48,683 nucleotides of DNA from Chitinophagales bacterium (GTDB lineage Bacteria; Bacteroidota; Bacteroidia; Chitinophagales; UBA2359), in contig JAHDIA010000001.1 of the NCBI GenBank assembly GCA_020631035.1, positions 1 through 48,683 of the forward strand. The letters run 5' to 3'. Positions within the stretch are counted from its first letter, which is position 1, and each line of letters opens with the position of its first letter. Both the position numbers and the translations under genes were made by a program. Shown here piece after piece: positions 9,624 to 48,683 of the stretch. Below the pieces are notes generated by a model, which saw only the letters and a list, made by a program, of their open reading frames with translations, had not been told where the DNA came from and did no database searches.

Positions 9624-9992
9624 ATGATTACAATTCAAGCAAAATTTACGGGAGAAAGACAAAACCTTGAGGTGTTCAAATGCTGCGGCATAAGATACAA
9701 TTCACGCCAAAGATTTGAAGGATCAAGCACACTGATAATTGATTGGATATGCGAGCAGGAAACGGTCAACGAAGCGATTGAGGCTTGCATGGACGATTGC
9801 GATTTGAACGAAGCTGAGAAATGGGGGATTGAACTTGAGAGCTTCGGAGTATTGCCACCAAGCTTCATAGATATATTAGAATCGCAACACAAAAGCCTTG
9901 TCGAGCAAATTGAGCATGGAAGCTCGGATGAAGAGTTAATTAAGCAGCTCAAAGATGAGCTGTACCAAAAAACTGGCTGGGAGTATTTATAA
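9624..9992 (+). CDS. hypothetical protein
   Basis: 122-aa ATG ORF directly downstream of the conserved cassette. Confidence 0.55.
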   Translation: MITIQAKFTGERQNLEVFKCCGIRYNSRQRFEGSSTLIIDWICEQETVNEAIEACMDDCDLNEAEKWGIELESFGVLPPSFIDILESQHKSLVEQIEHGSSDEELIKQLKDELYQKTGWEYL

Positions 9993-15984: not shown

Positions 15985-17223
15985 TTATGCATCAATATCA
16001 TCAATCGCCCTACTTATATCCTTTCCTTCAAGACCAATATATCTGTAAGTTGACTTCTCATCACTCTTGCCTAGCAGGTACATCACCTGAAGAATTGATC
16101 CTGTTTTGTCATACACCAATCTCCCATATGTCCTGCGAAAAGTGTGAGCTGTACACCTCTCCCATTTCTTGAATTTGTCAGTATACAATGTCGCTCCACT
16201 CATCCAGTTTTTTTCCATATCCTTGTCAATTCCAGCTTTCTTGCAAAGGTTCTTGCTTAACCTGTTGAACACCTGCCCTACTGGAACACTATATCCAGTG
16301 CCTTCAAAATCCCTTATCAAATCAACTGCCCTTTGACTCACTGGAAGCCACTCGTATGTTTTCTTTTTGGGAATGTAGATTTGGTGCCAAAACTTCCCAT
16401 TATTTCGCTTTTCGATTCCACCTGAATTGTAAGCCTCAAGGTCGCTATACCTAAGACCAGTTAGGCATAGAAATCGAATCAACATTTTGATGTAATTTTC
16501 AGAGTCAGTTTGAGGATTGTATTTTTTGATTAGATTTATTTCCTCTTGTCTTAGAAAGACAACTGGCGGCTCAATGATTTGAAGATTCAATTTGTATTTG
16601 AATTCATCTTTTCTGTATCCTTGGTCAATTGTCCAATTAAGAAAAGTCTTGAGGTCTTTGAAAATCCTTGTTTGAATTGTGGAATTATTCAATTTTTGTT
16701 GGAAGCAGTGCTTGAGTAATTCATTGCAATACTTACTTCCAAGGTTTTGTATTTTTGGATTAAGTCCAAGCTCCCTAATGTGACCCAAGGTTGTCTTGTA
16801 TCCCTTGACGGTCCTTGAGTCTTTGACCCGATGCCCGCCTTCATGACTCTCTGCAAGGAACTCCTCAAAGCAGCTTATGAGCTTGATGCTATTTTTGATA
16901 TGCCTTGACTTTTGCTCATCATTGAGGCTTGAAATCTCGTACAAGTATTTGATGTTTTCGCCCGACAAATCTCCATTGTGCTGTCTTACCATAATGATTA
17001 TTTTTTCAATGTCTGCTTTGATTTTTTTGATCAAGTCATTGTACTCTTTCGACTTCCTATACTTGGGAGAGACCAATTGTTTTGCAGATGAGAAAAACCT
17101 CGCTGGCACCTTCAGTCCAGTTGAGAATTTTGTTGTCTTGCCATTATGATTGTAGTTGATGTAGATCGTACAACCATCTTTGGTCTTTCTTTTCTCGTAT
17201 ATACGAGCTTTGAGCGTTGCCAT
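15985..17223 (-). CDS. int: tyrosine recombinase / phage integrase
   Basis: Bacteroidota-type N-terminus (ATLKARIYEKRKTKDG...YINYNHNGK). Catalytic-region motifs LTGLRYSDL, HTFRRTYG and ...KSTYRYI. Confidence 0.9.
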   Translation of the reverse strand: MATLKARIYEKRKTKDGCTIYINYNHNGKTTKFSTGLKVPARFFSSAKQLVSPKYRKSKEYNDLIKKIKADIEKIIIMVRQHNGDLSGENIKYLYEISSLNDEQKSRHIKNSIKLISCFEEFLAESHEGGHRVKDSRTVKGYKTTLGHIRELGLNPKIQNLGSKYCNELLKHCFQQKLNNSTIQTRIFKDLKTFLNWTIDQGYRKDEFKYKLNLQIIEPPVVFLRQEEINLIKKYNPQTDSENYIKMLIRFLCLTGLRYSDLEAYNSGGIEKRNNGKFWHQIYIPKKKTYEWLPVSQRAVDLIRDFEGTGYSVPVGQVFNRLSKNLCKKAGIDKDMEKNWMSGATLYTDKFKKWERCTAHTFRRTYGRLVYDKTGSILQVMYLLGKSDEKSTYRYIGLEGKDISRAIDDIDA

Positions 17224-37573: not shown

Positions 37574-39514
37574 ATGCAAAATTCCACAACAAAAGATGCT
37601 ATACGCACCATTCTCATATTTTTCATATTGGTGTTTTTTTCTTGCTCTCTTCAGAAAGTAGGATTGCAGACGGATCGCTTTGACATTGACATCAATCTCA
37701 GCGACTCCACCCTATCGGTGACGCCACTTGGAATCACGGAACCTACTCATCACAAAAACCTTCCACCGCCGCCCGCTGGTCTTTCGGTTTCCGATGCTGA
37801 CATTGGATCTCCTAAGAATCTTGAAGTAATCAATTTCGGCAGGCTTGGATTCATCTGCCAGTTCGACTCGGTTGAAAACGCTGAGTCTTATTGGTATGCA
37901 CTATCTCACAATGAGGAAGGAACTGACCTCCTATTCCGCTCAATGGCAGCAGACAAAAAAAGCAATCGCCAAAAAACGGACCTTGTCACTTTTTCTGAAG
38001 TAGAAAACTACAATCCTGAAAAGCAGCTGTATCTCTCAGTTTTTGCAACTCAAAATTTGCGTGATGCAGGTCGACCCGCTGTCATCACGCTGCGTCCCGA
38101 TGATTTCAAACCAGGATATGATGATTTTTCTTGGGAGTTTGATGATAGATTTGATGTAAATTACAAAAGTTACGTTGACAGCATCCTTGTAGCAGCCAAG
38201 CCGCATATTGTGAAGGTTTTTGGTAAGGCATTTTCTAGCCATCCAATTAGAATCCGTCAGTCTAATCAGTGGTGGATTTTCTTATATAAGAAGTGGGACA
38301 TTGAGCTGAAGGGAAACGCCAATCCAAATGTGATCATTCACGAGATTTGCCATTTTCTTCAGGGACTGTACCTACCATCAGTGACCCAAAAAGGAGAATA
38401 CAACAACACCCTCGAATGGCTCGCCGAAGGGATGGCACAGGCAGCGAGCTATGAGGTGATGACCTCTATGGGAATACAGGCGCATTCCCAATATGGGAAT
38501 TTCTATGATTTGGAAAACTGCGAGGAGCTTTCCTGCTCCTACTTTCGCTCTGATGGCGGGGGGATGGGGATGACTTGGTGGAGATATGAGATGGCCGGGC
38601 ATTTCTTCAGAAAACTCTCAATTGAGTATAGCAGGGATAATTCTGGTCGGTTTTTCTTTGCAGACCTCAATCAATTATATTTTGAGCATCTAACAAATAG
38701 CCCTGGACTTGATAGGCTCACAGCATTCAAAAAGGCAATCTCTCAACTGATGCCTTATGTAGAGGGACAGTACGTGCTTGACTGGATAGATGAGCAATAC
38801 ATTAGCTTTGGCAAGGAGAGCCTTGGTAGAAAAATTCACATTTCCCATCAGCCGTATTGGACCAATAACTCGGGCGGTGGAGAGTTCACTTCGATTGAAA
38901 AAATATACTTCTATGAAACCCATCCAAGCTGCCGCTCCAATTGGTGGTGTTCTGAATCAGAAAAGCATGATCTCAATGGTCTGTATGCTCAAGTTAATAT
39001 AATAGAGAGCTGGAGCGGCGACACTATTTCCACCATCAATCACAGGACAAATCCTTACCCAAATGAAAAAGGCTTCTCTTCTATTGTCTTGCTCATTGGC
39101 ACCAGCACTGATGAATCTAGCAATACACAGTATCTCAAAACCTATTACAAGGATATTGGGAAAAACCCAACGGTCCTGAAGGTGAAAAAAACAGGTCTGT
39201 ATCGAATCGACATTGATTTTGGCATTGCCAAGCGGTCCGTCTATCGACTTTTGGGAGATGGCATTGGAGAGCATAGAGACAAGGTCATTGTAGCGATGCC
39301 TGATGCCCCAAAAGGAAGCTATATGATGGTTTCAAAAGATGGGACTTGGAACCTTGCAAGATGGAAATTTGAAAGGGGCATTGCCCTTACAAATGTTAAT
39401 GCAGAAACCTCAAGGCTACTACTCAATGTTACAGATGCGAGAGGAGGACATTTGAGGACCGAAAAGAGAAATATTGATTCCAAAAATACTCAGCTAATAT
39501 TGATAGAAAACTAA
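37574..39514 (+). CDS. lipoprotein with HExxH zinc-metallopeptidase-like motif
   Basis: Signal/lipobox ...FFILVFFSC. FN3-like N-terminal region. VIIHEICHFLQG motif. Confidence 0.55.
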   Translation: MQNSTTKDAIRTILIFFILVFFSCSLQKVGLQTDRFDIDINLSDSTLSVTPLGITEPTHHKNLPPPPAGLSVSDADIGSPKNLEVINFGRLGFICQFDSVENAESYWYALSHNEEGTDLLFRSMAADKKSNRQKTDLVTFSEVENYNPEKQLYLSVFATQNLRDAGRPAVITLRPDDFKPGYDDFSWEFDDRFDVNYKSYVDSILVAAKPHIVKVFGKAFSSHPIRIRQSNQWWIFLYKKWDIELKGNANPNVIIHEICHFLQGLYLPSVTQKGEYNNTLEWLAEGMAQAASYEVMTSMGIQAHSQYGNFYDLENCEELSCSYFRSDGGGMGMTWWRYEMAGHFFRKLSIEYSRDNSGRFFFADLNQLYFEHLTNSPGLDRLTAFKKAISQLMPYVEGQYVLDWIDEQYISFGKESLGRKIHISHQPYWTNNSGGGEFTSIEKIYFYETHPSCRSNWWCSESEKHDLNGLYAQVNIIESWSGDTISTINHRTNPYPNEKGFSSIVLLIGTSTDESSNTQYLKTYYKDIGKNPTVLKVKKTGLYRIDIDFGIAKRSVYRLLGDGIGEHRDKVIVAMPDAPKGSYMMVSKDGTWNLARWKFERGIALTNVNAETSRLLLNVTDARGGHLRTEKRNIDSKNTQLILIEN

Positions 39515-39558: not shown

Positions 39559-40407
39559 ATGAGACATTTTTTTTTCATCACAATACTTGCCTGCCTGCTT
39601 GTCTTTCTTTTCGCCTGCGCTCCTCAAAATAGGATTGCAGTTGAATCTGCCGAAGTAGGATTTGAGCAGGGCAGAGATTATAAGAAAATATATGGCAAGG
39701 TTGTATTTGGGCGGTGTAGCTACGATGATAGCGCACCTTATAATCAAATAAGCTGTTACCTATCAGATTACAAGAAAATAAGCTACGCCATCAATCATCC
39801 AATGCCTGGATTCACGCTTGATCAAACTGACACAATTATTCAGGCTGCAGCCCAGTACATCAATGAGTACATTGATCTGCCATTCTACCGAGTAAGTTAC
39901 TTTCAAAACCCAAAGTTGGTATTTTCAGCTTATAGGCTTAATGAGATGCCCCCCTTCCATCCTTTTGACGGGGAAGGCGGCACCATTGCTCATACATATC
40001 CAGGCTGCTACATAGATTGTGAGATGGCCTCTCATATTTTCTATGATCTTGACAGCAAACTCAGTAATGGATTTGATGATGAAGGAAGCCTACTCAACGC
40101 AGTGAAAGTGACGGTTCACGAAATACTGCATTTTCTAGGTTTTGGGCATACCCAAGACCCGCAGTCAATCATGTTTCCAATGTACAATGACCATCCGATT
40201 TTTTTCACATCGGATGATTCACTCGGACTAGTAACACATTACCTACCACAAAATAATAAGGAAAATGAAAGAGATGAAAACATTAACAATGATGCTGATT
40301 ATAAGCCTAGAGGCTTTTTTCATCGCATCTTTGGGAGGCACAAATGTAGCCGCCCAAGTAGACCAGGAGAGTCCGCCGACACTCCCAAAAGTATATCAGT
40401 TAGATAG
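39559..40407 (+). CDS. lipoprotein, matrixin-like (metzincin, M10-type) zinc metalloprotease
   Basis: Signal/lipobox LVFLFAC. Extended zinc motif VHEILHFLGFGH (HExxHxxGxxH) followed by the Met-turn-like SIMFP. Confidence 0.75.
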   Translation: MRHFFFITILACLLVFLFACAPQNRIAVESAEVGFEQGRDYKKIYGKVVFGRCSYDDSAPYNQISCYLSDYKKISYAINHPMPGFTLDQTDTIIQAAAQYINEYIDLPFYRVSYFQNPKLVFSAYRLNEMPPFHPFDGEGGTIAHTYPGCYIDCEMASHIFYDLDSKLSNGFDDEGSLLNAVKVTVHEILHFLGFGHTQDPQSIMFPMYNDHPIFFTSDDSLGLVTHYLPQNNKENERDENINNDADYKPRGFFHRIFGRHKCSRPSRPGESADTPKSISVR

Positions 40408-41107
40408 TCTTGAGAAAAAAGAGATTGTCGATTCAGGTGAAGTTCAATGCAAAATCCTTAAAAAATCATACCTGGGGTATTGGATAGAGTACGAAGATGG
40501 AGTGGCACTGATCGAGGCAAACTTTTTGCCAGCTGGCACAAGACCAAAGCCTCAGATTTGCAGCGGTCCTCCTCCTGCTAAGATGGTAGAAGTCATTAAG
40601 GAACAAACTGACTCACTACCCCAGCAAAACAGGATGTATAGCAAGCAACCACAAGGTTGGAAGGTGCTGCTTGACAACCTTTGGGAATCTGAAATACCTG
40701 GAGCAGAAAACAACTGGAAGCTTCAACATATTATAGATCATGCTATGAAGTCAACGGGCATCTATCTTCCACCCGAATGGGTATCAGATAAGCTGCCAAG
40801 CTGCGCCGTTGCAGTCATCTATGCAGAGAGTGCATCGGGAAAAGATGTGTCGTCTTTGAATTTCAAAGCCATCTCTTTTTTGAAATATGGAACGGCTGTG
40901 GAGAGCCTGGAGAAAGCAAAGTTTGGGGATATAATTGTTTTGTATAGATTTTCACCTGAGAGATGGGAATCTCACGTTGGCTACCTAATGGGAGTAATTG
41001 GGAACAATGTAATGCTGCTTGGGGGCAATCAAGATGATAGGATTGGAATTGATGCATTCCCAATCTCAAAAATTAGGGCTGATGGCATCCGCCGTCCTCC
41101 TCCGTAG
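40265..41107 (+). CDS. secreted TIGR02594/CHAP-like peptidoglycan hydrolase (endolysin candidate)
   Basis: N-terminal signal peptide (MKTLTMMLIISLEAFFIASLGG). C-terminal ...GDIIVLYR...HVGYLMG...LLGGNQDDRI... signature. Overlaps the upstream gene by about 140 nt. Confidence 0.65.
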   Translation: MKEMKTLTMMLIISLEAFFIASLGGTNVAAQVDQESPPTLPKVYQLDSLEKKEIVDSGEVQCKILKKSYLGYWIEYEDGVALIEANFLPAGTRPKPQICSGPPPAKMVEVIKEQTDSLPQQNRMYSKQPQGWKVLLDNLWESEIPGAENNWKLQHIIDHAMKSTGIYLPPEWVSDKLPSCAVAVIYAESASGKDVSSLNFKAISFLKYGTAVESLEKAKFGDIIVLYRFSPERWESHVGYLMGVIGNNVMLLGGNQDDRIGIDAFPISKIRADGIRRPPP

Positions 41108-41113
41108 AGCTAT

Positions 41114-41144
41114 TTGCAAAAGTGGTTTTGATTTGGTACATTTG
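41114..41144 (+). promoter_or_regulatory. Bacteroidota-type promoter
   Basis: TTG 41114-41116, N20, TAcaTTTG 41137-41144. Confidence 0.5.
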
Positions 41145-41148
41145 TAGT

Positions 41149-41295
41149 ACCACAACAAAGAAAATGCTGATTCTAGCGATATGGCTCACGCCAAGTTAGT
41201 TCACTATTTTTGACATAATATTGAGTAATTAAGATACAGCCTGACTGTTTTCGGTATATCCGTATTCGTGCGGAATCAGCATCTTTTGTTGTGGT
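41149..41295. repeat. imperfect inverted repeat pair flanking a segment of about 100 bp
   Basis: accacaacaaagaaaatgctgattc (41149-41173) versus gaatcagcatcttttgttgtggt (41273-41295). Matched blocks of 11 nt and 10 nt, separated by a 2-nt indel. Confidence 0.7.
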
Positions 41296-41313
41296 TAACA
41301 TTAATGCAACCGA

Positions 41314-41353
41314 GCAGTCAGGTTCCTCTTTTTTTGCCTGACTGCTCTTTTCG
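41314..41353 (+). terminator. hairpin + T-rich tail in the leader of the 41379 gene
   Basis: Perfect 9-bp stem gcagtcagg (41314-41322) / cctgactgc (41337-41345), followed by tcttttcg. Confidence 0.5.
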
Positions 41354-41378
41354 ATAACCACTAAAAATCAAAAGAGGC

Positions 41379-42149
41379 ATGTTAGAAAAATTATTCAAAC
41401 AAAGCTTTGTGCCAAGACAGGCAAAAGGAGCAAAACCTACCACCAAAACTAACAGCCAAAGGGAAAAAACTAAAACCATACTGAAGGCAAGCGAGCATAT
41501 TGAGCATCTCACTGAGGGGTATGTACTAAGCTCAGAAGCTAAGAAGAACATCGCCAAGGCATACATCGCCAAGCGTCCAAAGGGATACGGAGAAATCTAC
41601 TCTCCTATCTATAATCTATCCTATTACGCCACTACCCTGCTTCACATTTTTTCACTTGTGATTGCACTGCCATTTGTGACCATCTTGGTGGGCTTTTTTG
41701 CTCAACAAATTGGGCTTCCAATTGGAGAGCAGACGGCATACATCATTGCAGCAGGATTTTTGGCATCTCTTGAAATTGCCCAACACAGCACTCTTAATGT
41801 AATGTGGAATATCTACTTTCAAGATGGGAAGTTTGCCGCTGGAATTACAGTAGTGGCCATTATCTTCTCAGCTTTTTCTGTTGCAAGTTCAGGTTATTCA
41901 GCTTATCATTTTTTGCAGGGTTCACAATTTGTGATTTGGGGGCTTGCCATTTCAATAGGAAATGAAGCACTCATCAATTGGCTCTCGCATTGGAGACACA
42001 AATATGAGTGGACAACAAGGCAAGAATCACAAATGGTCAATGACCTATACAGAGGGAAAAAAGATGACCATCTATTCACAAAAGTAAGCAAAAATGATTC
42101 ATCGCTGGGAAAGGAGAGAGGGCAGCAGGCTCACAAAATGGAGCAGTAA
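41379..42149 (+). CDS. polytopic membrane protein
   Basis: 256 aa with at least four hydrophobic helices after a basic N-terminal region. Confidence 0.55.
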   Translation: MLEKLFKQSFVPRQAKGAKPTTKTNSQREKTKTILKASEHIEHLTEGYVLSSEAKKNIAKAYIAKRPKGYGEIYSPIYNLSYYATTLLHIFSLVIALPFVTILVGFFAQQIGLPIGEQTAYIIAAGFLASLEIAQHSTLNVMWNIYFQDGKFAAGITVVAIIFSAFSVASSGYSAYHFLQGSQFVIWGLAISIGNEALINWLSHWRHKYEWTTRQESQMVNDLYRGKKDDHLFTKVSKNDSSLGKERGQQAHKMEQ

Positions 42150-42280
42150 TCACAAAAGAAAAAAAGACTGTTGCCCACCCTATCACAGATGGCAAAAAGC
42201 CCTTATCACAAAAAGGGGAATCACAATCACAAAAGGGAGAACCCCCAGTGAGTACGGGAGTTTCGAGCGAATCACAAAAA
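42131..42280 (+). repeat. cluster of same-orientation (A)TCACAAAA(G) repeats
   Basis: Copies at 42131, 42149, 42182 (variant), 42205, 42220 (short), 42226 and 42271. More dispersed copies lie at 42026 and 42075. Confidence 0.7.
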
Positions 42281-42310
42281 AATGAGAAGAAGAAAAAGCC
42301 AAAGCATCCA

Positions 42311-42550
42311 ATGTTTGATTTGAAGGAAGTGATAAGGTACAAAGGGATGTATTGGGACAAATTACAGGAAGGATACACTGACCGAAAGCAAGCGTATTAC
42401 GACCTAGTTTGTGACATAGAATCAAACTGGGATGAGCTTCAAGACGGAGGCGTTGTGAGAAAACCAAATACTGCCGAAAGGTTGAAATACTTCAGAGAGG
42501 GGAGAGATAGAAATTACCTAATTGAAATCACAAAAATTCAAGACAAATGA
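42311..42550 (+). CDS. hypothetical protein
   Basis: ATG at 42311 (MFDLKEVIRYKG). The track ORF begins at GTG 42248, inside the repeat cluster. Confidence 0.45.
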   Translation: MFDLKEVIRYKGMYWDKLQEGYTDRKQAYYDLVCDIESNWDELQDGGVVRKPNTAERLKYFREGRDRNYLIEITKIQDK

Positions 42551-42885
42551 GTATACCATCAAACAATCAAAGACCGCAAACTGGATCACAAATGATTTCA
42601 TTGTTCATTTTCCTATGTATGATTCTATTCATTATTTGGCATCCAACAGCCGACCAAGCAACTGACCCATTTTGCAGGAAGGTCAATGGCGATATTCACA
42701 AAGCTGGCGGCGTGCTGAATTACTACTTTGACAGAGTAGGGATGCACTCTGAGTCACAAAGACATGTTCGTTCTGGTCAAAAAAGCATGCAAAAACAAGA
42801 GCAGTATAGATATGAGGAAGAAGAGCAGAAACAGGAAAATGATCTTGCAGAATACTATCGACAAAGATTCCAAAGAAGGAGGTAA
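42547..42885 (+). CDS. small membrane-anchored protein
   Basis: ATGA overlap. One hydrophobic helix (MISLFIFLCMILFIIW). Confidence 0.5.
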   Translation: MSIPSNNQRPQTGSQMISLFIFLCMILFIIWHPTADQATDPFCRKVNGDIHKAGGVLNYYFDRVGMHSESQRHVRSGQKSMQKQEQYRYEEEEQKQENDLAEYYRQRFQRRR

Positions 42886-42888
42886 CAA

Positions 42889-43119
42889 ATGTATGAATTG
42901 ATCCTATTTTTCATCCTCACATACGCCTCAGTGATGTCCCATTTTTTTGGACCAGTTTTGTCCAAAAAAATTGGACTGCCTCAGTGGGATGCATACCAAT
43001 ACATCCCAACTGAGCAGGACTGGATAATGGTTCATTACTCCAATGAGGCAAAAAAGAACCTTGCATCCATTAAGAAAAAACCAAACCAAAAGAAACCAAT
43101 TTTTGAAATCAAAAAATAA
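42889..43119 (+). CDS. small membrane protein
   Basis: 76 aa with an N-terminal hydrophobic helix. Confidence 0.45.
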   Translation: MYELILFFILTYASVMSHFFGPVLSKKIGLPQWDAYQYIPTEQDWIMVHYSNEAKKNLASIKKKPNQKKPIFEIKK

Positions 43120-43128
43120 CAAATCATT

Positions 43129-43431
43129 ATGGAAACATTCAGAGCAGTTGTGCTGGAAATCAACCCAGCAACAATGAAACCCGAGGAGAAACATATTTTT
43201 GAAGGAGAGTTGCCAAGGGGATTTGCAGTTCTCAAGATTGAAGAAAAACTGTATCACGTTCAAAATGTGATTTGGGACACCACCCAAGATTGTGCTTTCT
43301 TCTATGTCATTGACCCTATACGGTTTGAAAGAGCTAAGGAGATTATGGGAGCAAAAGGAGGGATTAAGTATCAAGGAAAAGGAGAGAAGTCATTCACACA
43401 AAAAATCAAATCCCCCAAAAATATCAACTAA
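43129..43431 (+). CDS. hypothetical protein
   Basis: 100-aa ATG ORF followed by a terminator. Confidence 0.5.
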   Translation: METFRAVVLEINPATMKPEEKHIFEGELPRGFAVLKIEEKLYHVQNVIWDTTQDCAFFYVIDPIRFERAKEIMGAKGGIKYQGKGEKSFTQKIKSPKNIN

Positions 43432-43438
43432 CAAAAGA

Positions 43439-43464
43439 GGCTGCCAAAACGGGCAGTCTTTTTT
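43439..43464 (+). terminator. rho-independent terminator
   Basis: Stem ggctgcc / ggcagtc (one G-U pair), loop aaaacg, followed by T6. Confidence 0.65.
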
Positions 43465-43526
43465 GTTAAACCATTTTTTTTGCATTTCTCACACTTTCCT
43501 TTTTTCTTTGTAATACTTTCCTAAAA

Positions 43527-44276: not shown

Positions 44277-46256
44277 ATGACTGCAATTGAATTTGCAGTC
44301 ATTTTCCCCATTCCAAAACTAGATACAATGCAAATTACAACGGAGTACATCACCAAATTACTCAAAAACGGAATTGATGCAGTAGGAGAGCGTCACAAGG
44401 TCTCCTATGCAGAGATAGAAGTATATAAGGATGAAAGTGAGGATATTACATCCCACTACAATGGATCAAAACCAAAGAAGCTTTTTGGAGAGAGATTCCC
44501 ATCGGAGCGGGAGGTATACCGCAAATACAGAGAGGAGAACTTTCAACCAATCACCCGTGCCTCAGTTCTTAGGGGACTTGCTGCATTGTATAGAATTTTC
44601 ACGGGAGCCAACCACTCAATACATTACAATGCTCCATTAGATGAGTATATGGAAAAGGCAAAGTTTGAAGGCTTGACTTTTCCCCAATACATCTTCAAGA
44701 CATTCATTACAAACTCTGTGTGCGACCCAAATGGATGGCTCGTTACAGTTCCCAAAAAACCAGAAAACAGCAATGACAGAGCTGAAATAGAATTGATATG
44801 TGTGCCTTCCTCAGCTCTTATTATCACGCCAAAATCCCATGCTGGAATTTTCGCTTTTCAGCACAAAAATGCTGAGAAAATAATGCAGTACAAAGGAGAG
44901 ACCTATCAGGTCAAATCGTCGTACTATATCATTACAAAAGAATGGTACTACAAGTATGTACAGGTATCCAGAAAAGGAAAAGAAAAGCGTCTGCTCATAC
45001 CATATTACAAAAACTACTGTGGTGAGATTACTGCCGTGAAAAATGGCGGGATTACCGCTATGAAAAAAAATGAGCTGGAACAGATTTCTTACCAAATCTC
45101 TTACTTTGCACACGCCGTTCCTTACTTGAATGAAGCGAGAATTGACCATACGCTCCATCAGGTTAATAAGGTGCTTAATGGTTCGCCTAAGTTGGTGATT
45201 GGCGGTACAGAGTGCTCAAACTGCCATGGCCAACCTGTAATTGGACAAGAGTGGTGTGATAAAGAACAATGCAACAAACAAATATTTTGTGATAAGTGTG
45301 GCGGATTTGGGTTCACAAAACCTGAATCGCAGTTTGACGCAATAGAGGTTCTGCCTCCCGTGAATGAAGCACTTGGTCAGTCGTACAAATTTGTCTACGA
45401 CTATATTACCGTTCCAATTGCTAACTTGGAACATCTTGGCAAGGAAGCTGAAAAGAACATTCAAAAAGCCGATGAGGTTCTTTTGCTTCGATTTGTACAA
45501 GAAGCTCAATCGGGAGTGGCAAAAGAAATTGACAGGGAAGAAAAATACTCCTCGTTCTATTCCATATCAGATTACATTTTCGACACAGTAATGCAAAGGC
45601 TACTGACTTGGATTGATTGCCTCAGGCATAGGGGCAGAGCAGTAGGATTTCAGATTCACAAGCCTATTAGCTTCCAGATAAAAACAGAGATAATGCTTTG
45701 GGAGGAGCTGTGTGAGAAATTGACCAAAAACGCTCCACAGGGCGACATAATTGCCACTTACCTCGATTACATCACAAAACGCTATCCAACCAACAAAAAG
45801 ATGCAGAAAATTGAAAAAATCTGCATCTATTATGAGCCGCATTACATTCATACCATCACGCAGCGGCAGCAGCTGCAAGCAAGTGAGAATATTGACAAAA
45901 ATGCGAACATTCGGGCGACTCGTGTCAACGGTATTGTCAGACTAATTTGCGAGGATCTTGGCGATCAGCAATTCTTGGACGCTTCATTCTCTCAAATTAA
46001 GAAACGCATTGATGAATTAATGAAAGAGTATATGCCAAGCGAACAAGTCAACGGTGAACTTACAACTGAGCAAAAAAGATTAAGGTCGCTTGTTGGGACA
46101 ATGCGATCTATAACAGAACTTCAAAAAGCGGTTGTCGAAGGCAGTATTGAAAAAGATGAGGCAATTAATTCTGTAGTTACCCTACTTGGCTTCACACCAG
46201 AAGAGGCAGCTAATCTAATCGGCGATGCCGTCCCATCACCAGAACCAGCACAGTAG
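44277..46256 (+). CDS. portal-like protein (positional call) with embedded CxxC-rich cluster
   Basis: 659 aa, immediately upstream of a Mu-F-like head morphogenesis gene. Cluster CSNCHGQP...CDKEQC...CDKCGGFG. Confidence 0.45.
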   Translation: MTAIEFAVIFPIPKLDTMQITTEYITKLLKNGIDAVGERHKVSYAEIEVYKDESEDITSHYNGSKPKKLFGERFPSEREVYRKYREENFQPITRASVLRGLAALYRIFTGANHSIHYNAPLDEYMEKAKFEGLTFPQYIFKTFITNSVCDPNGWLVTVPKKPENSNDRAEIELICVPSSALIITPKSHAGIFAFQHKNAEKIMQYKGETYQVKSSYYIITKEWYYKYVQVSRKGKEKRLLIPYYKNYCGEITAVKNGGITAMKKNELEQISYQISYFAHAVPYLNEARIDHTLHQVNKVLNGSPKLVIGGTECSNCHGQPVIGQEWCDKEQCNKQIFCDKCGGFGFTKPESQFDAIEVLPPVNEALGQSYKFVYDYITVPIANLEHLGKEAEKNIQKADEVLLLRFVQEAQSGVAKEIDREEKYSSFYSISDYIFDTVMQRLLTWIDCLRHRGRAVGFQIHKPISFQIKTEIMLWEELCEKLTKNAPQGDIIATYLDYITKRYPTNKKMQKIEKICIYYEPHYIHTITQRQQLQASENIDKNANIRATRVNGIVRLICEDLGDQQFLDASFSQIKKRIDELMKEYMPSEQVNGELTTEQKRLRSLVGTMRSITELQKAVVEGSIEKDEAINSVVTLLGFTPEEAANLIGDAVPSPEPAQ

Positions 46257-47346: not shown

Positions 47347-47537
47347 TTTACATCTGTTTTTGAAACCATAATTCTGTATCCATTATAGTCAACCCATATG
47401 TCTTTGTCAGGATTGATCAAGTCTTTCATTGCAAAGGTCATTATTGGCTGATTTGGGTCCCAGCCAATAAATCCTTTTCCAATATACTCCAGCTTCTGCC
47501 CTTCTTGGAATTCCTGTGAATTTTTAATTTCTTTCAT
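47343..47537 (-). CDS. hypothetical small protein
   Basis: Start moved to the ATG at 47537 (MKEIKNSQEF), 10 nt downstream of a TTAACCACAACAA leader copy. Confidence 0.5.
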   Translation of the reverse strand: MKEIKNSQEFQEGQKLEYIGKGFIGWDPNQPIMTFAMKDLINPDKDIWVDYNGYRIMVSKTDVK

Positions 47538-48643: not shown

Positions 48644-48674
48644 TTGCACGGTACGAATATTTGATTTATATTTG
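48644..48674 (+). promoter_or_regulatory. Bacteroidota-type promoter reading across the window end
   Basis: TTG 48644-48646, N20, TAtaTTTG 48667-48674. The next ORF in this direction is 46..411 at the other end of the window. Confidence 0.5.
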
Positions 48675-48683
48675 TACCAACAA

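What the first reader, a model, noticed from the sequence alone, without database searches (positions are those of the whole stretch)
41108..41378. Inverted-repeat-bounded segment with an internal promoter and mutually exclusive hairpins upstream of a membrane-protein gene
Seen in this 270-bp non-coding region:
- (i) A consensus promoter, TTG-N20-TAcaTTTG (41114-41144).
- (ii) Imperfect inverted repeats of 23-25 nt (41149-41173 and 41273-41295). Each combines the ACCACAACAA leader word with ATGCTGATTC. Each therefore starts a micro-ORF beginning MLI: 41164-41199 on the plus strand and 41282-41229 on the minus strand, convergent.
- (iii) An exact TAttTTTG box (41205-41212) inside the segment bounded by the repeats, pointing towards the 41379 gene.
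- (iv) Three copies of one 8-9-mer that allow alternative pairing. A is cctgactg (41240-41247). B is (g)cagtcagg (41314-41322). C is cctgactgc (41337-41345). B:C forms a terminator-like hairpin followed by tcttttcg. A:B would prevent it.

Inference: either an invertible promoter switch of the kind common in Bacteroidota, perhaps using the phage tyrosine recombinase or a host invertase, or a leader-peptide/antisense attenuator. Either would control the polytopic membrane protein (41379..42149) and the downstream small membrane proteins.
Basis: partly seen in the sequence, partly recalled or inferred. Interest (0 to 1): 0.62.

Follow-up and report, generated by a model that had tools for sequence, protein, structure and literature searches.

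The report
Attenuator-like RNA leader in a phage
The inverted repeats in front of this phage membrane-protein gene most likely act in the RNA, as part of a roughly 229-nt leader that can fold into either a terminator or an anti-terminator, and not as the ends of a flippable DNA promoter; this rests on folding predictions and one partial relative.

Summary
The inverted repeat and the A/B/C words are more than chance would give.

New points from this check:
- **Repeat arms.** Both arms are copies of this phage's own translation-start cassette: an ACCACAACAA-type word about 20 nt before an ATG. That word precedes 17 of 56 gene starts in the phage and shows no such positioning in the host contigs.
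- **A and C.** They belong to a longer direct repeat, and B can pair with an extended A (11+5 bp) or with C (12 bp).
- **Folding ensembles.** With the left arm (L) free, L:R and the terminator-like hairpin T form. With L blocked, A:B wins.
- **Conservation.** T sits 26-34 nt before the start codon in four other homologous loci. The right arm (R) is conserved in the one closer relative.
- **Against inversion.**
  - The contig's only recombinase is the integrase, 24 kb away.
  - The inner TAttTTTG box occurs at chance frequency and lacks a -33 TTG.
  - Three assemblies show one orientation.
  - A consensus promoter already points at the gene from outside the repeats.

Best reading (about 0.47): an RNA-level attenuator in the leader of a five-gene small-protein operon, three of whose products have hydrophobic stretches. 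Comparative support is thin.

The parts
41113..41144 (+). Promoter P1: -33 TTTG (41113-41116), 20-nt spacer, -7 box TACATTTG (41137-41144). The inferred start site is about 41149-41152.
   Evidence: one of four exact TTG-N20-TAnnTTTG matches, all on the + strand and intergenic. The consensus is from PMC7366714. It is paralogous to the promoter at 48644-48674, including the following gtACCA(C)AACAAAG.
41149..41173 (+). Arm L: a copy of the phage's translation-start cassette (leader word ACCACAACAA at 41149-41158, AUG at 41164), placed at the very 5' end of the P1 transcript.
   Evidence: The predicted duplex with arm R is -34.4 kcal/mol.
41164..41199 (+). Micro-ORF MLILAIWLTPS*, whose start codon lies inside arm L. 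It is a candidate leader peptide; expression is untested.
   Evidence: It has an A-rich upstream context, and the leader word starts at -15.
41205..41212 (+). Isolated TATTTTTG box inside the segment. Probably not a promoter.
   Evidence: TAnnTTTG is at chance frequency (52 found, 46.7 expected). No TTG lies 17-23 nt upstream.
41238..41255 (+). Element A (extended): the 5' strand of the predicted anti-terminator. It is a direct-repeat copy of the terminator's 3' arm plus its T-tract.
   Evidence: 12 of 5000 shuffles reach the score. It pairs with 41309-41324 as 11+5 bp.
41229..41282 (-). Minus-strand micro-ORF MLIPHEYGYTENSQAVS*. Probably not expressed.
   Evidence: No minus-strand -7 box with a correctly spaced TTG lies between T and this cassette; the only hit is a 1-mismatch box about 100 nt away at 41393. 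The equivalent frame in L014 is only 4 codons long, read by eye.
41273..41297 (+). Arm R: the reverse complement of a translation-start cassette (TTAACCACAACAAAAGATGCTGATTC). In the + strand RNA it is an anti-start-site element. It pairs with L, or more weakly with the membrane gene's own start region.
   Evidence: (I4, I6, I7, I11). It is conserved in L014 as CAGCATTCGTTGTGGTAAAC.
41309..41324 (+). Element B (extended): the shared strand, which pairs with A (anti-terminator) or with C (terminator).
41312..41355 (+). Hairpin T: a 12-bp stem (41312-41323 with 41336-41347), a 12-nt U/C-rich loop, then the tail TTTTCGAT.
   Evidence: -22.3 kcal/mol, z = -3.8. A hairpin sits at the same position in L014, L011, L012 and L013.
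41355..41381 (+). Element L': the membrane gene's own start region (TAACCACTAAAAATCAAAAGAGGC + ATG). It carries a degenerate leader word at -22.
   Evidence: It is complementary to arm R (I7 and I11). The word TAACCnnTAAAAAT is conserved in homologous loci.
41379..42149 (+). Controlled gene: a 256-aa protein with several long hydrophobic stretches (read by eye as about four membrane segments). It is the first of five small genes, which end at the terminator at 43429-43468.
   Evidence: No PHROG or Pfam match.

Best explanation
The 270-bp region is the promoter and roughly 229-nt 5' leader of a small phage operon. The operon runs 41379-43431 and encodes a 256-aa membrane protein plus four small proteins, two of them with hydrophobic N-terminal stretches. 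It acts at the RNA level as an attenuator, not as a DNA switch.

**Layout.** Transcription starts at the consensus Bacteroidota promoter P1, at about 41150. The RNA begins with L, a copy of the phage's own translation-start cassette that carries the AUG of an 11-codon micro-ORF. About 100 nt downstream lies R, the reverse complement of the same cassette.

**Default state.** L:R forms a stem of about 24 bp that encloses element A. B then pairs with C to form hairpin T, followed by UUUUCG. Transcripts stop, or are held back, 31 nt before the start codon.

**Switched state.** L may be occupied by an initiating ribosome on the micro-ORF, or by a factor that recognises the cassette. A is then free to pair with B, T does not form, and transcription runs into the membrane-protein gene.

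**Shown here:** the sequence elements, their non-random nature, the predicted folds, and conservation of T and R.

**Inferred:** that T terminates, that the switch works during transcription, and what occupies L.
For: 1. P1 is one of four exact TTG-N20-TAnnTTTG sites. All four are on the + strand at plausible operon starts. The MAG is Bacteroidota, with at least 150 Por_Secre_tail domains.
2. The leader of about 229 nt is far longer than the Bacteroides median of 32 nt. Long leaders with small ORFs have been noted there as candidate attenuators (PMC7366714).
3. The arms belong to a translation-start word family.
   - There are 6 exact ACCACAACAA copies, all intergenic and upstream of ATGs, a density 17 times that of the whole MAG.
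   - The looser motif lies at -17 to -33 before 17 of 56 starts, against 1.6 expected. Some of these genes have almost no gap from the upstream gene.
   - The host contigs show no such positioning.
   - A fixed distance to the ATG, with a variable distance to the promoter, points to RNA-level function.
4. In thermodynamic ensembles, L free gives P(L:R)=0.94, P(T)=1.00 and P(A:B)=0. L blocked gives P(A:B)=0.57-0.79 and P(T)=0.21-0.43 (structures).
5. A is a duplicate of C plus its T-tract (12 of 5000 shuffles reach the score). B's complementarity to A runs over 16 bp.
6. A stable hairpin ends 26-34 nt before the start codon in the window and in four other loci encoding homologues of the membrane protein. 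The stem sequences are unrelated. Every transcript of the gene must therefore pass through it.
7. In L014 (membrane protein 46% identical, portal 64%), R is conserved, and R, T and L' fold into the same architecture with different stem sequences.
Against: - There are no RNA data: no start site, no 3' ends and no proof that the micro-ORF is translated.
- T has a 12-nt loop and only four consecutive U's. The phage's clear terminators have 6-nt loops and longer T-runs, so T may not terminate.
- The exclusion of A:B by L:R is partly a product of nested-structure folding. A pseudoknot carrying both is not modelled.
- The only closer relative (L014) is cut off 119 nt before the ATG, so conservation of L and A is unknown.
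- The more distant homologous loci have T but no L:R or A element.
- The micro-ORF has no run of regulatory codons.
- Arm similarity may simply reflect an inverted duplication of a cassette.
- The predicted change in accessibility of the start region is small (0.60 against 0.40).
Confidence: 0.47

Rival explanations
1. Relic without a switch. An inverted duplication of a translation-start cassette left the L/R repeat. T is an ordinary hairpin (a leaky terminator or an mRNA-stabilising stem) that is always present before this gene, and nothing toggles.
For: - Weak palindromic similarity continues a little beyond the arms (alignment), as a duplication would leave.
- More distant homologous loci have T but no L/R or A.
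- The cassette family is dispersed and clearly duplicates.
Against: - The arms keep two exact blocks of 11 and 10 nt while the interior has diverged.
- R is conserved in L014, at 46% protein identity.
- The A/C repeat and the 16-bp A:B complementarity are unlikely by chance.
Confidence: 0.2
2. Terminated small RNA. P1 to T gives a stand-alone RNA of about 200 nt whose R segment pairs in trans with the leaders of other phage mRNAs, especially the three early cassettes. It would act as an antisense shut-off.
For: - Predicted duplexes of R with the start regions of the genes at 9624, 47755 and the minus-strand gene starting near 47537 are about -25 kcal/mol. The background median is -12 with sd 5.
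- R shares 15-17 nt of contiguous identity with those cassettes.
- Promoter plus terminator-like hairpin is the usual shape of a small-RNA gene.
Against: - In the RNA itself R is predicted to be locked by L (P=0.94, -34.4 kcal/mol), so the seed would be hidden.
- The complementarity follows automatically from R being a family member.
- There is no Rfam match.
Confidence: 0.1
3. DNA-level operator pair. The TTAACCACAACAA word is the binding site of a phage regulator, and the two inverted copies bracket the region to repress or loop P1.
For: - In the three early cassettes the word sits at a fixed 13 nt after the -7 box.
- The word contains a small dyad, TTGTT-N6-AACAA (read by eye).
Against: - The distance to the promoter varies (13, 4 and 1 nt), whereas the distance to the ATG is near-constant at about -20.
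- That spacing holds for some genes with almost no gap from the upstream gene, where no promoter is expected.
- The dyad is not kept in L.
- All copies are sense-oriented relative to their gene.
Confidence: 0.1
4. Invertible promoter (inverton). A recombinase flips 41174-41272 between the arms, turning an internal promoter towards or away from the membrane-protein gene.
For: - The repeats of 23-25 nt flank 99 bp.
- A TAnnTTTG box lies inside and points at the gene.
- Candidate viral invertons have been reported (PMC13501310).
Against: - The contig has no serine recombinase. Its only tyrosine recombinase is the integrase, 24 kb away.
- The inner box is at chance frequency and has no -33 TTG.
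- The consensus promoter P1 outside the segment already drives the gene.
- The MAG contig and two Logan contigs from other runs are identical, unbroken and in one orientation. The MAG has no second copy.
- The arms are explained by the cassette family.
Confidence: 0.07

Closest known systems
Leader-peptide transcription attenuators (trp, his and pyrBI type; my own knowledge)
   Same: - A promoter followed by a long leader.
- A short ORF at the 5' end.
- A terminator-like hairpin just before the first structural gene.
- A mutually exclusive anti-terminator that shares one strand with the terminator.
- Ribosome occupancy of the first segment is predicted to decide the fold.
   Different: - The micro-ORF has no run of regulatory codons.
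- The anti-terminator strand A lies inside a long-range clamp (L:R) and not in a simple 1-2-3-4 series.
- The clamp is built from an inverted copy of the phage's own translation-start cassette.
- The host phylum lacks Shine-Dalgarno-led initiation.
- The terminator has an unusually large loop.
Lambda pR'-6S RNA-tR' late leader with Q antitermination (my own knowledge)
   Same: A strong promoter is followed about 200 nt later by a terminator. This sits just before a block of membrane-protein genes next to wall-active enzymes and head genes, so a short terminated RNA would be the default product.
   Different: No Q-like protein or qut-like site was identified. Here an RNA-encoded anti-terminator (A:B) is present, which lambda does not use.
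Bacteroides invertible promoters (PMC8748976; PMC4747536)
   Same: Short inverted repeats flank a segment of about 100 bp that holds a -7-like box, upstream of a surface or membrane gene.
   Different: There is no invertase nearby. The inner promoter is incomplete. A complete promoter lies outside the segment. Only one orientation is seen in three assemblies.
Phage P1 c4 and P22 sar antisense RNAs; T4 RegA (my own knowledge)
   Same: An element complementary to translation-start regions of the phage's own mRNAs is made from the same transcription unit (c4). A shared start-region word could be read by one factor (RegA).
   Different: No processing, no trans target and no binding protein has been shown. 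R is predicted to be paired in cis.

Membership tests
Invertible promoter (inverton) | Inverted repeats flank the segment | tested here: met
   41149-41173 and 41273-41295, with exact blocks of 11 and 10 nt.
Invertible promoter (inverton) | A functional promoter lies inside the segment | tested here: inconclusive
   Only a lone TATTTTTG box is present. That motif is at chance frequency (52 found, 46.7 expected) and this copy has no TTG 17-23 nt upstream. Promoter activity was not measured.
Invertible promoter (inverton) | Both orientations are present in sequence data | tested here: inconclusive
   The MAG contig and two Logan contigs show one orientation and are unbroken. The MAG has no second copy.
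Invertible promoter (inverton) | A site-specific invertase is encoded nearby, or the repeats match a known invertase site | tested here: not met
   The contig has no Resolvase-family gene. Its only Phage_integrase hit is at 16036-16557, within the integrase ORF, 24 kb away. Read by eye, the arms do not contain the B. fragilis Mpi core (that consensus is from my own knowledge).
Leader-peptide transcription attenuator | A long leader carries a short ORF that has its own start signals | tested here: met
   The leader is about 229 nt. The 11-codon ORF at 41164-41199 has the phage's start-region word at -15.
Leader-peptide transcription attenuator | An intrinsic terminator lies between the leader ORF and the structural gene | tested here: inconclusive
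   The stem has 12 bp at -22.3 kcal/mol, and the tail has 5 T in 8. The loop is 12 nt, so the consensus scan did not list it. No termination assay was done.
Leader-peptide transcription attenuator | A mutually exclusive anti-terminator whose formation depends on occupancy of the leader ORF | tested here: met
   Met in silico only. With L blocked, P(A:B) rises from 0 to 0.57-0.79 and P(T) falls from 1.00 to 0.21-0.43 (helices).
Leader-peptide transcription attenuator | Premature 3' ends and regulated read-through occur in vivo | not testable with these tools
Curated RNA families (Rfam 15) | A match to a covariance model | tested here: not met
   No hit at gathering score in the window. The only hit at relaxed threshold is a chance-level miRNA match with E = 3.2.
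Miniature inverted-repeat element | Multiple copies in the genome and target-site duplications | tested here: not met
   There is a single copy in the 6.07-Mb MAG. No direct repeat flanks the arms (read by eye).

The most novel reading that the evidence does not exclude
The leader is a 'start-site decoy' sensor. The phage marks many of its genes with a private word about 20 nt before the start codon. This operon's leader carries one sense copy (L) and one antisense copy (R) of that word. Whatever reads the word, either the ribosome in a phage-specific way or a phage-encoded RegA-like start-site binder, would open the L:R clamp and switch on the membrane-protein operon. That would tie the timing of this possibly lysis-related operon to the translational state of the infection. 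No such device is known to me in Bacteroidota or their phages.
Probability: 0.15. Interest if true: 0.7.

Novelty: new variant of a known kind. Interest (0 to 1): 0.42.

Why it matters
RNA-level control is poorly charted in Bacteroidota and almost unknown in their phages, and translation there starts without Shine-Dalgarno pairing. A leader whose switch is built from the phage's own start-site word would have two uses. It would give a defined object for testing how such start sites are recognised. It would also allow a test of whether transcription attenuation coupled to translation works in this phylum.

The result is also a caution for inverton screens that work without reads. Short inverted repeats next to a -7 box can be RNA stems.

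If the controlled genes are lysis genes, which is an inference from the neighbouring wall-active enzymes and the membrane proteins, the element would set lysis timing.

Tried and rejected
1. **Read-level inversion test.** The look-up of sequencing runs and read laying were both closed.
2. **Relatives by protein.**
   - The membrane protein, the upstream hydrolase and the portal, singly or as alignments, were scanned against IMG/VR, JGI metagenomes and GTDB genomes. No locus was found.
   - The 5.8-billion-protein search gave one useful homologue of the membrane protein (P0002, on contig L014) and none for the hydrolase.
   - Portal relatives are at most 30% identical. Their loci (L017-L019) lack the gene and the element. 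An apparent AATCAGCATC match in L019 proved to be at background level (7 of 23 mismatches, like random hits).
3. **A longer contig for the L014 phage.** None is on record.
4. **DNA pattern for R...L'.** It was run against 33 family genomes, about 400 order genomes and IMG/VR. Only the window matched, plus unrelated chance hits.
5. **Consensus folding of the five homologous leaders.** MAFFT could not align hairpins of unrelated sequence, so no pairs were predicted. Each was folded singly instead. No covariance model was built.
6. **Rfam.** Nothing was found.
7. **Paralogue on contig C373 of the same MAG.** It has no comparable upstream region.
8. **Self-against-reverse-complement alignment as a repeat statistic.** It was confounded by the symmetric path and was not used.
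9. **Minus-strand promoter for the R-side micro-ORF.** Only a 1-mismatch box at 41393 was found. By my estimate that is expected by chance.

Full report
**Setting.** The window is a whole contig, C211 of an 852-contig MAG, and is the MAG's longest contig. It has 40.7% G+C against 38.5% for the MAG. It carries a portal-like gene at 44277-46256 and a gene with a tail-lysozyme-like match at 40265-41107. It also has a repressor-like gene whose product, read by eye, has an S24-peptidase-type C-terminus, and a single tyrosine recombinase. The MAG has at least 150 Por_Secre_tail domains, so it belongs to Bacteroidota. No phage in GenBank or IMG/VR resembles it.

**Observation.** All four items are real.
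- The promoter TTG-N20-TACATTTG (41114-41144) is one of four exact matches in the window. All four are on the + strand and intergenic. The motif is the sigma-ABfr consensus (PMC7366714).
- The repeat arms 41149-41173 and 41273-41295 share exact blocks of 11 and 10 nt around a 2-nt indel.
- Both micro-ORFs translate as stated.
- The inner TATTTTTG exists, but TAnnTTTG occurs at chance frequency (52 found, 46.7 expected). This copy has no -33 TTG.
- A, B and C are exact and extend further. A/C is a 21-column gapped direct repeat that includes the T-tract (12 of 5000 shuffles reach its score). B extended pairs with A extended as 11+5 bp.

**What the arms are.**
- ACCACAACAA occurs six times in the window, always intergenic and upstream of an ATG. 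Its density is 17 times that of the whole MAG.
- A looser form, A[CT]CA[CA]NA[AC]A, lies at -17 to -33 before 17 of 56 gene starts, against 1.6 expected. Most copies lie at -19 to -22. Some of these genes have almost no gap from the upstream gene, where no promoter is expected.
- In the host contigs the word shows no fixed distance to ATGs.
- The distance to the promoter varies: 13 nt in the three early cassettes, 4 nt at P1 and 1 nt at the 48644 promoter.

The word is therefore best read as a phage-specific part of the translation-start region, acting in RNA. Arm L is such a cassette, with an AUG, at the very 5' end of the P1 transcript. Arm R is its reverse complement. In the + strand RNA, R is an anti-start-site element.

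**Folds.**
- The P1 transcript folds with L:R as a long stem and B:C as hairpin T (-71.2 kcal/mol, z = -7.35).
- In ensembles, L free gives P(L:R)=0.94, P(T)=1.00 and P(A:B)=0.
- With L blocked, as by an initiating ribosome, or in a transcript lacking L, P(A:B) is 0.57-0.79 and P(T) is 0.21-0.43. Helices are listed.

This is the geometry of an attenuator: a clamp (L:R), an anti-terminator (A:B) and a terminator (B:C). One caveat applies. Nested folding forbids L:R and A:B together, and a pseudoknot holding both was not modelled.

**Comparative evidence (thin).**
- The membrane protein has one close homologue (46% identity). It lies on a 4.7-kb Logan contig, L014, whose portal is 64% identical to the window's.
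- That contig starts only 119 nt before the ATG. Within that stretch R is conserved (CAGCATTCGTTGTGGTAAAC), and a hairpin with an unrelated stem and a U-rich loop follows. The gene's start region carries GTTTACCACAAAA, perfectly complementary over 11 nt to R.
- Three more distant homologues from same-genus MAGs, plus L014 and the window, each have a stable hairpin ending 26-34 nt before the start codon. Too little room is left for a promoter, so every transcript of this gene family passes through the hairpin.
- L, A and the micro-ORF could not be checked in any relative.

**Against inversion.**
- The contig has no serine recombinase, and its only tyrosine recombinase is the integrase, 24 kb away.
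- P1 lies outside the segment and points at the gene.
- The inner box is not a credible promoter.
- Two Logan contigs from other runs cross the region unbroken, identical and in the same orientation. The MAG has no alternative copy.

**Other readings.**
- A trans-acting RNA is possible, since R pairs with the three early cassettes at about -25 kcal/mol. However, R is predicted to be locked by L.
- A DNA operator reading fits the spacing data less well.
- A functionless relic of an inverted duplication remains a serious rival. It is weakened by conservation of R in L014 and by the non-random A/B/C set.

**Verdict.** This is most likely an RNA-level, attenuator-like leader (0.47). It would be a new variant of a known kind of control, in a phylum and phage group where such control is barely described. 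Interest is moderate and depends on RNA data.

Noticed in passing
whole window; e.g. 4882, 9604, 27377, 39542, 40245, 41357, 42226, 42527, 47736: A phage-specific word, A[CT]CA[CA]NA[AC]A, lies about 20 nt before 17 of 56 start codons (1.6 expected). Some of these genes have almost no gap from the upstream gene. The host contigs show no such positioning. It looks like a private translation-start signal.
   Followed up: partly
window 37584-37600: Seventeen nt (CCACAACAAAAGATGCT) are identical to the minus-strand cassette copy at 41278-41294. Here they lie inside the first codons of the 646-aa lipoprotein ORF (MQNSTTKDA...), and the embedded ATG is out of frame.
   Followed up: no
window 41114-41158 and 48644-48683 joined to 1-10: The two consensus promoters are paralogous: TTGCA...TTTGATTT..TAnATTTG followed by gtACCA(C)AACAAAG. 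The second fires across the contig ends, which share an 8-nt overlap (ACCAACAA). This fits a circular or permuted genome.
   Followed up: partly
L011 2992-3060 (-), L012 2270-2327, L013 2017-2071, L014 55-122: Homologues of the membrane protein in other MAGs and contigs all have a long non-coding upstream region. Each ends in a stable hairpin followed by a conserved start-region word, TAACC(TG/AC)TAAAAAT.
   Followed up: partly
window 42149-42279: There are four exact + strand ATCACAAAA copies in 130 bp, just after the membrane-protein gene. A further copy at 42527 lies 20 nt before the next-but-one start codon. The word is a close variant of the start-region word.
   Followed up: no
window 41324-41335 and L014 70-79: The loop of hairpin T is long and pyrimidine-rich in both phages (UCCUCUUUUUUU and UUUCUUUUUU). 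In the window it is complementary to AAAAGAGG just before the start codon (I13), so a loop-to-start-site pairing is possible.
   Followed up: no
G000 contig C373 4833-5918: The same MAG holds a second, longer paralogue of the membrane protein (34% identity over the full alignment, 361 aa) on a short contig with a different upstream context. A second related phage may be present in the bin.
   Followed up: partly
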